This document shows positions 34,832 to 37,800 of a stretch of DNA of 64,000 bases, in pieces. The notes beneath the pieces are model-generated. The model worked only from the letters and a program-made list of their open reading frames with translations. It was not told where the DNA came from and did not search any database. Source of the stretch: the human T2T-CHM13v2.0 reference genome, Homo sapiens. The translations under genes and the position numbers were made by a program. Numbering within the stretch: position 1 is the first letter of the stretch; each line of letters starts with the position of its first letter. The stretch lies in NCBI RefSeq assembly GCF_009914755.1, contig NC_060927.1. The stretch is one strand, 5' to 3'.

Positions 34832-37800
34832 TGATGTGGTTTGGCTCTGTGTCCACACCCAAATTTCATCTTGTAGCTCCCATAATTCTCATGTGTTGTG
34901 GAAGGACCTGGCAGGAGAAAACTGAATCATGAGGATGGGTCTTTCCTGTGCTGTTCTCATGATAGTAATTGGGTCTCACAAAATCTGATGGTTTTAAAAA
35001 CAATAGTTTCTCTGCACAAGCTCTCTCTTACCACCACCATGTAAGAAGTGCCTTTCCGGCAGGCGGATCACCTAAGGTCAAGAGTTCCAGACTGGCCCTC
35101 CCCCTCCCCCTCCCCCTCCCTCTCCCCTTTCTTTGTTCGGTCTCCCTCTGTTGCCGAGGCTGGACTGTACTGCCCTCATCTCAGCTCACTGCAACCTGCC
35201 TGCCTCGGGCTCCCATGATTCTGCTGCCTCGGCCTGCCCAGTGCCTGGGATTGCAGACACGTGCCGCCACACCTGACTGGCTTTTGCGTTTTTGGTGGAG
35301 ACGGGGTTTCGCCGTGTTGACCGGGCTGATCTCCAGCTCCTGACCTTGAGCGATCTGCCCACCTTGGCCTCCCGAGGTGCTGGGATTGCAGACGGAGTCT
35401 CACTCACTCAATGCTCAATGTTGCCCAGGCTGGAGTGCAGTGGCGTGATCTCGGCTCACTACAACCTCTACCTCCCAGCCGCCTGCCTTGGCCTCCCAAA
35501 GTGCTAAGATTACAGCCTCTGCCCAGCCACTACCCCGTCTAGGAAGTGAGGAGCGTCTCTTCCTGGCCGCCCATCGTCTGGGATGTGAGGAGCCCCTCTG
35601 CCCAGCCGCCCCGTCTGGGAAGTAAGGAGTGCCTCTGCCCGGCCGCCACCATGTCTAGGAAGTGAGGAGCATCTCTGCCTGGCGGCCCATCGTCTGGGAT
35701 GTGAGGAGCGCCTCTGCCCGGCCGCCCCATCTGGGAAGTGAGGAGCGCCTCTGCCCGGCCGCCACCCCGTCTAGGAAGTGAGGAGCATCTCTGCCCGGCC
35801 GCCCCGTCTGGGACGTGGGGAGTGCCTCTGCCCGGCCGCCCCGTCTGGGAGGTGGGGGGCGCCTTGACCCGGCCGACCCGTCTGGGAGGTGGGGGGGGCG
35901 CCTCGACCCGGCCGCCCCGTCTGGGAGGTGGGGGGCGCCTCTGCTCGGCCGCCCCGTCTGGGAGGTGGGGGGCGCCTCTGCCCGGCCACCACCCCGTCTG
36001 GGAACTGAGGGGCGCCTCTGCCCGGCCGCCCCATCTGGGAACTGAGGAGTGCCTCTGCCCGGCCGCCCCATCTGGGAACTGAGGAGTGCCTCTGCCCAGC
36101 CGCCCCGTCTAGGAAGTGAGCGCCTCTGCCCGGCTGCCCCGGCTGGGAAGTGAGGAACACCTGTGCCCGGCCGCCCCGGCTGGGAGGTGTAGCCAACAGC
36201 TCTGAAGAGACAGCGACCATCGAGAACGGGCCATGATGACGATGGCAGTTTTGTAGAAAAGAAAAGGGGGAAATGTGGGGAAAAGAAAGAGAGAACAGAT
36301 TGTTACTGTGTCTGTGTAGAAAGAAGTAGACATAGGAGACTCCATTTTGTTCTGTACTAAGAAAAACTCTTCTGCCTTGGGATGCTGTTAATCTATAACC
36401 TTACCCCCAACCCCGTGCTCTCCGAAACATGTGCTGTGTCCACTCAGGGTTACATGGATTAAGGGCGGTGCAAGATATGCTTTGTTAAACAGATGCTTGA
36501 AGGCAGCATGCTCTTTAAGAGTCATCACCACTCCCTAATCTCAAGTACCCAGGGACACAAACACTGCAGAAGGCTGCAGGGACCTCTGCCTAGGAAAACT
36601 AGAGTCCTTTGTTCACGTGTTTATCTGCTGACCTTCTCTCCACTATTATCCTATGACCCTGCCACATCCCCCTCTCCGAGAAACATGCAAGAATGATCAA
36701 TAAATACTAAAAAAAAAAAAAAAAAAAAAAAAAAAGAGTTCCAGACCAGCCTGGCCAACATGGTGAAACCCCCTCTCTACTAAAGATAGAAAAATTAGCT
36801 GGGCGTTTTGGTGCATGCCTGTAATCTCACTACTCAGGAGGCTGAAGCAGGAGAGTTGCTTGAACCCGGGAGGCAGAGGCTGCAGTGCGCTGAGATCATG
36901 CTACTGCACTCCATCTGGCCTAGGCAACAGAGTGAGATTCCATCTCAAAAAAAAAAGAAAAATAGTAGAATAAAGGTTAAAGGCAAAATGAAAAAAAAAA
37001 AAAAAAAAAAAAGAAGTGCCTTTCCCCTTCCGCCATGATTGTGAGGCCTCCCCAGCCACGTGGAACTGTAAACCCATTCAACCTCTTTCTTCTGTAAATT
37101 GCCCAGTCTTGGGTATGTCTTTATCAGCAGCATGAAGATGGACTAAAATGGTAAATTAGTACCAGTGGAGTGGGGTGTTGCTGAAAAGATACCCAAAAAT
37201 GTGGAAGTGACTTTGGAACTGGGTAATAGGCAGAGGCTGGAACAGTTTGGAGGGCTCAAAAGAAGACAGGAAAATGTGGGAAAGTTTGCAACTTCATAGA
37301 GACTTGTTGAATGGCTTTGACAAAAATGCTGATAATGACATGAACAGTAAGGTCCAGGCTGAGGTGGTCTCAGATGGAGATGAGGAGCTTATTGGGAACT
37401 GGAGCAAAGGTGACTCTTGTTATGTTTTAGCAAACAGATTGGCAGCATTTTGCCCTTGCCCTAGAGATTTGTGGAACTTTGAACTTGAGAGAGATGATTT
37501 AGGGTATCTGGTGGAAGAAATTTCTAAGTAGCAAAGCATTCAAGAGGCTATTTGCATACTGTTAAAGGCGTTCAGTTTCAAAAGGGAAACAAAGCATAAA
37601 AGTTCAGAAAATTTGCAGCCTGACGATGCAATAGAAAAGAAAATCCTATTTTCTGAGGAGAAATTCAAGCTGGCTGCAGAAACTTGCATAAGTAACGAGG
37701 AGCTGAATGTTAACCACCAAGACAATGGGGAAAATGTCTCCAGGGCATGTCAGAGACCTTTGTGGCAGCCCCTCCCATCACAGGCCGGAGGCCTAGGAGG

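What the first reader, a model, noticed from the sequence alone, without database searches (positions are those of the whole stretch)
35043..37025. SVA inside a second TSD pair with its own polyA signal: probable 5'+3' transduction carrying source-locus flanks
Seen: an outer 15-bp TSD AAGAAGTGCCTTTCC (35043-35057/37011-37025) in the THE1 LTR encloses 35 bp of 5'-truncated Alu, the SVA with inner 13-bp TSD, the rest of the Alu with its A tail, then non-Alu tagtagAATAAAggttaaaggcaaaatg (AATAAA 36969-36974) and a second 22-nt polyA 16 nt later. This is a Pol II cleavage/polyadenylation signature, not an ordinary Alu tail. Established: SVAs produce both 5' and 3' transductions. Inference: one event copied a source SVA together with its host Alu and both source TSDs. 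Alternative: an Alu-containing mRNA end retrotransposed first and the SVA landed in it later.
Basis: partly seen in the sequence, partly recalled or inferred. Interest (0 to 1): 0.7.

Follow-up and report, generated by a model that had tools for sequence, protein, structure and literature searches.

The report
SVA copy carrying its lost birthplace
An old ape jumping-gene copy (SVA) sits between two pieces of DNA that come from a spot just past the FLNB gene, and it was likely copied from a parent element there that has since been lost; this is a tidy example of a known process, not a new one.

Summary
The nested structure is real. The outer 15-bp and inner 13-bp TSDs, the Alu stub, the SVA, the Alu remainder, AATAAA and the second poly(A) all sit where stated. 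A second LTR in the window shows the empty site with one copy of the 15-mer.

I found the donor: a full-length Alu at chr3:58,215,154, 2.5 kb past the FLNB poly(A) signal. It shares the unique tail (2 exact matches in the genome) and matches at 206 of 212 Alu positions.

Dating puts the Alu copy and the SVA in the same period. A published table lists the element as SVA_A in human, chimp and gorilla, not orangutan.

Best reading (~0.8): one L1-driven 5'+3' SVA transduction from a source allele later lost. Rival (~0.15): an Alu-plus-tail retrocopy later hit by an SVA. The orangutan ortholog would decide; I could not fetch it. A new member of a known class, with no evident function.

The parts
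34832..35042 (+).
   Evidence: 176 of 208 aligned positions identical to the second LTR at about 38731-39079
35043..35057 (+). Outer TSD, 5' copy; bottom-strand nick site TCTT/AC, resembling an L1 endonuclease site (motif recalled)
   Evidence: single copy in the other LTR
35058..35079 (+). 5' co-copied flank: 22 nt starting at nt 51 of the donor Alu
   Evidence: 22/22 identical to donor L002:1314-1335
35080..35092 (+). Inner (source) TSD, 5' copy
   Evidence: the donor has this 13-mer once, with one later G>C change
35093..35514 (+). SVA 5' end: 3 extra bases TGG (possibly untemplated), short CCCTCC array, Alu-like domain
   Evidence: 88-92% identical to 29 other SVA loci
35515..36189 (+). 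SVA VNTR with units of 34-40 bp only (SVA_A-like)
   Evidence: 41-47 bp units arise at the SVA_A to SVA_B step
36190..36735 (+). SVA SINE-R, its AATAAA and 27-nt A run (last two A shared with the inner TSD)
   Evidence: the top 39 relatives listed are 95-96% identical
36734..36746 (+). Inner (source) TSD, 3' copy
36747..36962 (+). 3' co-copied flank: remainder of the donor Alu and its A tail
   Evidence: 206/212 identity to the donor; best of 83 other Alus 86.5%
36963..36990 (+). Donor Alu's 3' TSD plus unique donor flank, with AATAAA at 36969-36974
   Evidence: 28/28 identical to the donor; the 25-mer has 2 exact matches in the genome
36991..37010 (+). Poly(A) absent from the donor, added 16 nt after AATAAA
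   Evidence: the donor continues A-GTGCTTG... with no A run
37011..37025 (+). Outer TSD, 3' copy
37026..37150 (+). Host LTR, right part
   Evidence: 126 of 138 aligned positions (37011-37150) identical to the second LTR

Best explanation
This 1.97-kb insert is an RNA-derived copy of an SVA_A with Alu flanks on both sides that match one Alu 2.5 kb downstream of FLNB, and it likely arose in one 5'+3' transduction from a source SVA allele there that was later lost. Shown: the donor, the colinear flanks, the nested TSDs, a poly(A) absent from the donor 16 nt after AATAAA, the empty target site, and the absence of an SVA at the human donor. Inferred: (1) an SVA_A inserted into the donor Alu in a great-ape ancestor and duplicated the 13-mer; (2) Pol II started upstream of the SVA (the 5' end at Alu nt 51 is either a start site or a truncation point), read through the SVA's own poly(A) signal and was cleaved after the AATAAA made by the Alu's TSD; (3) L1 proteins inserted the RNA into the LTR, probably between the orangutan and gorilla splits; (4) the daughter fixed, while the source allele drifted out or, less likely, was excised precisely.
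For: Single donor for both flanks; 17 alignment columns of shared derived states. Same period: copy and donor differ by 6 substitutions and 1 deletion in 263 sites, of which 5 substitutions are non-CpG, about 1% per branch. The SVA has 12-17 private non-CpG changes in 765 sites, 1.6-2.2%. The rates are not significantly different (p 0.13-0.46) and the SVA does not look younger; a macaque-age retrocopy is disfavoured (P=0.0065, using recalled divergence levels). Levy 2017 lists an SVA_A of identical geometry (1555 bp) in gorilla, human and chimp, not orangutan. The main FLNB 3' end has no retrocopy (1 match, itself). Kirby 2025: 32 of 217 transductions are two-sided, and 16% lack a source SVA. 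Raiz 2012: SVA RNAs are mobilised 12-300-fold better than a pseudogene control. Rough expected-count odds 5:1 to over 300:1, with assumed inputs.
Against: No source SVA at the donor in T2T, nor in the panTro3 list near the interpolated position of about 59.06 Mb; the gorGor3 list is empty from 54.0 to 73.2 Mb and so uninformative. No sibling copies carry the 5' junction or the tail. The dating rests on 5-6 substitutions and cannot separate events a few million years apart; the SVA's private count may include changes from an unsampled parent. The expected-count odds use assumed numbers, and the Kirby rates come from young polymorphic elements.
Confidence: 0.8

Rival explanations
1. Two events at this site. 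First a 5'-truncated retrocopy (about 290 bp) of a Pol II RNA ending at the distal AATAAA past FLNB inserted into the LTR; later an SVA_A inserted into it.
For: The donor lacks the SVA in human and probably chimp. No loss event is needed. The inner site TCTT/GA is a plausible L1 endonuclease target (motif recalled). The dating allows the retrocopy to be up to gibbon age (P=0.17).
Against: It needs an SVA to hit a 290-bp target that was itself young. The main FLNB 3' end made no retrocopy, so a copy from a site 2.8 kb further downstream is improbable. The SVA is not less diverged than the Alu copy. Rough odds are against it.
Confidence: 0.14
2. A Pol III Alu transcript ran into the 3' flank (Alu-driven transduction), inserted 5'-truncated, and later received the SVA.
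For: The copied unit without the SVA is mostly Alu with a short flank.
Against: The copy ends 45 nt past the donor Alu, 16 nt after AATAAA, whereas the first TTTT is 265 nt past it. Halabian 2024 confirmed no AluY-driven transduction among 118,489 elements.
Confidence: 0.02
3. The SVA entered an earlier orphan copy of this Alu and tail at a third locus, now lost, and that composite was copied here.
For: It explains the empty donor, and concatenated transductions are described.
Against: No third copy of the tail or the diagnostic Alu segment exists in T2T. It needs an extra event as well as a loss.
Confidence: 0.04

Closest known systems
SVA 5'+3' transductions (Kirby 2025, PMC12593883; read: abstract, sections 7 and 10, part 1 of 2 of section 12, passages)
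   Same: Extra sequence on both sides inside new TSDs; source TSDs retained; 3' end at a downstream poly(A) signal. The 3' length here (about 245 bp) is near their 258-bp median. Some origins lack the source SVA.
   Different: Their set is young, polymorphic SVA_D-F1. This is an old SVA_A shared with gorilla and chimp, with a very short 5' flank (22 bp plus the TSD).
Chromosome-10 SVA_F1 source H10_1 group with 5' AluSc and 3' AluSp (Raiz 2012, PMC3287187; passages)
   Same: An SVA carried with Alu sequence at both ends and polyadenylated downstream of the 3' Alu's TSD.
   Different: H10_1 has two separate Alus and a MAST2 exon, is still present and has at least 13 offspring. Here one Alu is split by the SVA, there is a single copy, and the source is absent.
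SVA_A subfamily (Levy 2017 PMC5640379: supplement rows and passages; Lupan 2015 PMC4432496: passages)
   Same: Listed as SVA_A at hg19 chr3:101269748-101271340(+); VNTR has only short units.
   Different: The table gives coordinates, subfamily and species presence, not flanks or a donor.
AMAC1-like 3' transductions (Xing 2006; not held, recalled only)
   Same: As I recall, an old SVA transduction whose source SVA is missing from the donor locus.
   Different: That case copied a coding gene; this one copied about 290 bp of non-coding Alu and flank.

Membership tests
SVA two-sided transduction | Non-SVA sequence at both ends enclosed by one outer TSD | tested here: met
SVA two-sided transduction | Both flanks map colinearly to one donor locus | tested here: met
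   the 5' stub alone is not unique (its 24-mer has 4 exact matches including itself) but matches the donor 34/35 and overlaps the 3' flank by the TSD
SVA two-sided transduction | Source TSD pair retained around the SVA | tested here: met
   13/13 in the window; single copy at the donor
SVA two-sided transduction | 3' flank ends in non-genomic poly(A) after a downstream poly(A) signal | tested here: met
SVA two-sided transduction | Source SVA still at the donor (corroborating, not required: 16% lack it in Kirby 2025) | tested here: not met
   absent in T2T and from the panTro3 list by interpolation; gorilla list uninformative
SVA two-sided transduction | SVA and flanks arrived together (no SVA-free intermediate in outgroups) | not testable with these tools
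   no ape genomes held; dating is only compatible
SVA_A | Hexamer, Alu-like domain, VNTR, SINE-R, poly(A), TSD | tested here: met
SVA_A | VNTR without 41-47 bp units | tested here: met
   17 units of 34-40 bp; criterion
SVA_A | Diagnostic substitutions of the subfamily | not tested
   label taken from the Levy 2017 row matched by geometry
Alu-driven (Pol III) 3' transduction | 3' end at a run of four or more T | tested here: not met
   end at +45 nt; first TTTT at +265

The most novel reading that the evidence does not exclude
The SVA came second, and the outer unit is an SVA-free Alu transduction: an old Alu whose own TSD completed an AATAAA, polyadenylated there by Pol II and retrotransposed with its unique flank, with the donor identified. 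A genome-wide AluY search confirmed no Alu-driven transductions.
Probability: 0.14. Interest if true: 0.4.

Novelty: new member of a known kind. Interest (0 to 1): 0.2.

Why it matters
If right, the copy is the only trace of an SVA allele that once sat downstream of FLNB in a great-ape ancestor. Nested TSDs could be used to map such lost source alleles. It also shows an Alu's TSD completing a usable poly(A) signal. The mechanism is established, the cargo is non-coding, and no listed gene or functional element overlaps the insert, so the value is as a worked example.

Tried and rejected
Sibling search: the 5' junction 32-mer with up to 3 mismatches matched only itself. The tail 25-mer gave 6 matches, 2 exact and 4 with three mismatches that I did not examine further. 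The diagnostic Alu 23-mer gave 17 matches, 2 exact.

An 18-bp inner TSD with 2 mismatches was considered; 13 bp plus 3 extra bases needs fewer assumptions. A DNA-level duplication was rejected because the poly(A) is absent from the donor and the TSDs are new.

A TSD screen of 14 related old SVAs with both ends in view was too noisy for a rate. One (L067) shows a likely 3' transduction of about 245 bp.

Loci for the best SINE-R matches could not be cut out, so the SINE-R dating uses the 14 relatives fetched through the Alu-like query. Relatives covering under 380 bp (Alu-like) or under 500 bp (SINE-R) were dropped before counting. One of the 6 copy/donor substitutions, at the Alu end, was not polarised by the outgroup alignment.

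Xing 2006, Damert 2009 and Hancks 2009 are not held. Their supplementary transduction lists may already include this locus. Paper searches for FLNB+SVA+transduction+retrotranspos (1 unrelated listing), SVA+TRMT10C+retrotranspos (3 listings, none about this element by title or abstract start) and SVA+transduction+incomplete lineage sorting+source locus found no description. Two supplement searches with my recalled hg19 position missed; a wider prefix found the row about 6 kb away. Earlier scan findings were not available. The orangutan list was not checked for the donor. For Chu 2023 I saw passages and only the listing of its supplement.

Full report
Observation. All stated parts are present at the stated coordinates: outer TSD 35043-35057 and 37011-37025, Alu stub 35058-35092, inner 13-bp TSD 35080-35092 and 36734-36746, a full-length SVA, the Alu remainder, AATAAA at 36969-36974 and a second A run from 36991. 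The host LTR has a partner LTR at about 38731-39079 in which the two flanks are joined by a single copy of the 15-mer. So the whole 1.97 kb is one TSD-bounded insert in a once-intact LTR.

Donor. A search of the genome with 36900-36995 gave one strong second match, chr3:58,215,391-58,215,483, at 96% (40 of 204 candidates scored). The locus holds a full-length Alu starting at 58,215,154 with its own TSD (TAGCAGAATA / TAGTAGAATA), then the same unique tail and no A run after it. The tail 25-mer has exactly two exact matches in the genome, as does a diagnostic Alu 23-mer. The 3' Alu part matches the donor at 206 of 212 positions against 86.5% for the best of 83 other Alus, with 17 columns of shared derived states. 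The 5' stub matches 34 of 35 and starts at Alu nt 51. The upstream gene's last exon has Filamin-B as its best PDB hit (E 2e-39). Its AATAAA lies 2,467 bp before the Alu, on the same strand. The AATAAA used by the copy is made of the Alu's 3' TSD plus two flanking bases, and cleavage 16-17 nt later fits Pol II processing. The first TTTT is 265 nt past the Alu, so a Pol III end does not fit.

The donor Alu has no SVA and only one copy of the 13-mer. In the chimp list of Levy 2017 no SVA lies between 58.22 and 59.62 Mb, where the donor interpolates to about 59.06 Mb; this assumes the 58.22-Mb element is the ortholog of L067. The gorilla list is empty from 54.0 to 73.2 Mb and is uninformative. No sibling carries the 5' junction. 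Kirby 2025 found source elements for 84% of transduction-carrying SVAs and attributes the rest to lost or rare alleles. Damert 2018 ascribes SVA losses between apes to lineage sorting or, less likely, precise deletion (passages).

Dating. Copy and donor differ by 6 substitutions and one 1-bp deletion in 263 sites, Alu A tail excluded. Three changes are on the copy (one at a CpG); two and the deletion are on the donor; one was not polarised. Five non-CpG changes in about 250 sites give 2.0% in total (95% CI 0.6-4.7%). With recalled divergence levels this is unlikely at macaque age (P=0.0065) and compatible with gorilla to gibbon age. The SVA has 6-8 of 299 private non-CpG changes in its Alu-like domain (28 relatives) and 6-9 of 466 in SINE-R (14 relatives), 1.6-2.2%. 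That is not significantly different from 1% per branch (p 0.13-0.46), and it leans away from 'SVA later'. The VNTR has only 34-40 bp units, as described for SVA_A. Levy 2017 lists an SVA_A at hg19 chr3:101269748-101271340(+) in gorilla, human and chimp but not orangutan. I match it to this element by chromosome, strand, approximate position and an identical 1555-bp internal span, not by liftover. Absence in ponAbe2 may be an assembly gap.

Weighing the orders. The two-step rival needs a young retrocopy from a site 2.8 kb past FLNB's main poly(A) signal, then an SVA hit within 290 bp. The main FLNB 3' end has no retrocopy at all. Two-sided SVA transductions are common (32 of 217 in Kirby 2025), and SVA RNAs are better L1 substrates than a pseudogene control. 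A rough expected-count comparison with assumed inputs gives odds from 5:1 to over 300:1 for the single event; this is an estimate, not a measurement. I put the single transduction from a lost source at 0.8, the two-step order at 0.14 and the others at 0.06. Whether the 5' end is a start site or a truncation cannot be told.

Novelty. The mechanism and structure are described. The element is catalogued, though without flanks or donor in the table I saw. Three targeted searches found no description of this FLNB-downstream origin, but the papers most likely to list it were not available. Verdict: a real and well-resolved new member of a known kind, interest 0.2.

Noticed in passing
window 45026-51107 (+): Full-length L1 with open ORF1 (45945-46961, 338 aa) and ORF2 (47025-50852, 1275 aa; Pfam L1 ORF1, endonuclease and RT domains) and a 14-bp TSD, about 1 kb upstream of TRMT10C. 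A roughly 6-kb offset between my recalled hg19 position and the Levy row suggests it may be absent from hg19, i.e. polymorphic; not tested.
   Followed up: partly
window about 34832-39079: The host is a complete LTR-internal-LTR element (internal part about 1.58 kb) with a 4/5 TSD (CTTAT / CCTAT), apparently inserted in another repeat; the two LTRs are 85-91% identical.
   Followed up: partly
L067 (G000:C3:57376791-57379975): A related old SVA with a 13-bp TSD candidate 245 bp beyond its SINE-R: a likely 3' transduction.
   Followed up: no
L040 (G000:C1:237737367-237740554): The top match for the SVA's first 191 bp is also directly preceded by Alu left-arm sequence, and no TSD was found next to its poly(A); possibly another transduction.
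   Followed up: no
L031:5944 and 5961: The human donor has a second AATAAA inside the Alu A tail, 17 bp before the one the copy used; the copy lacks it.
   Followed up: no
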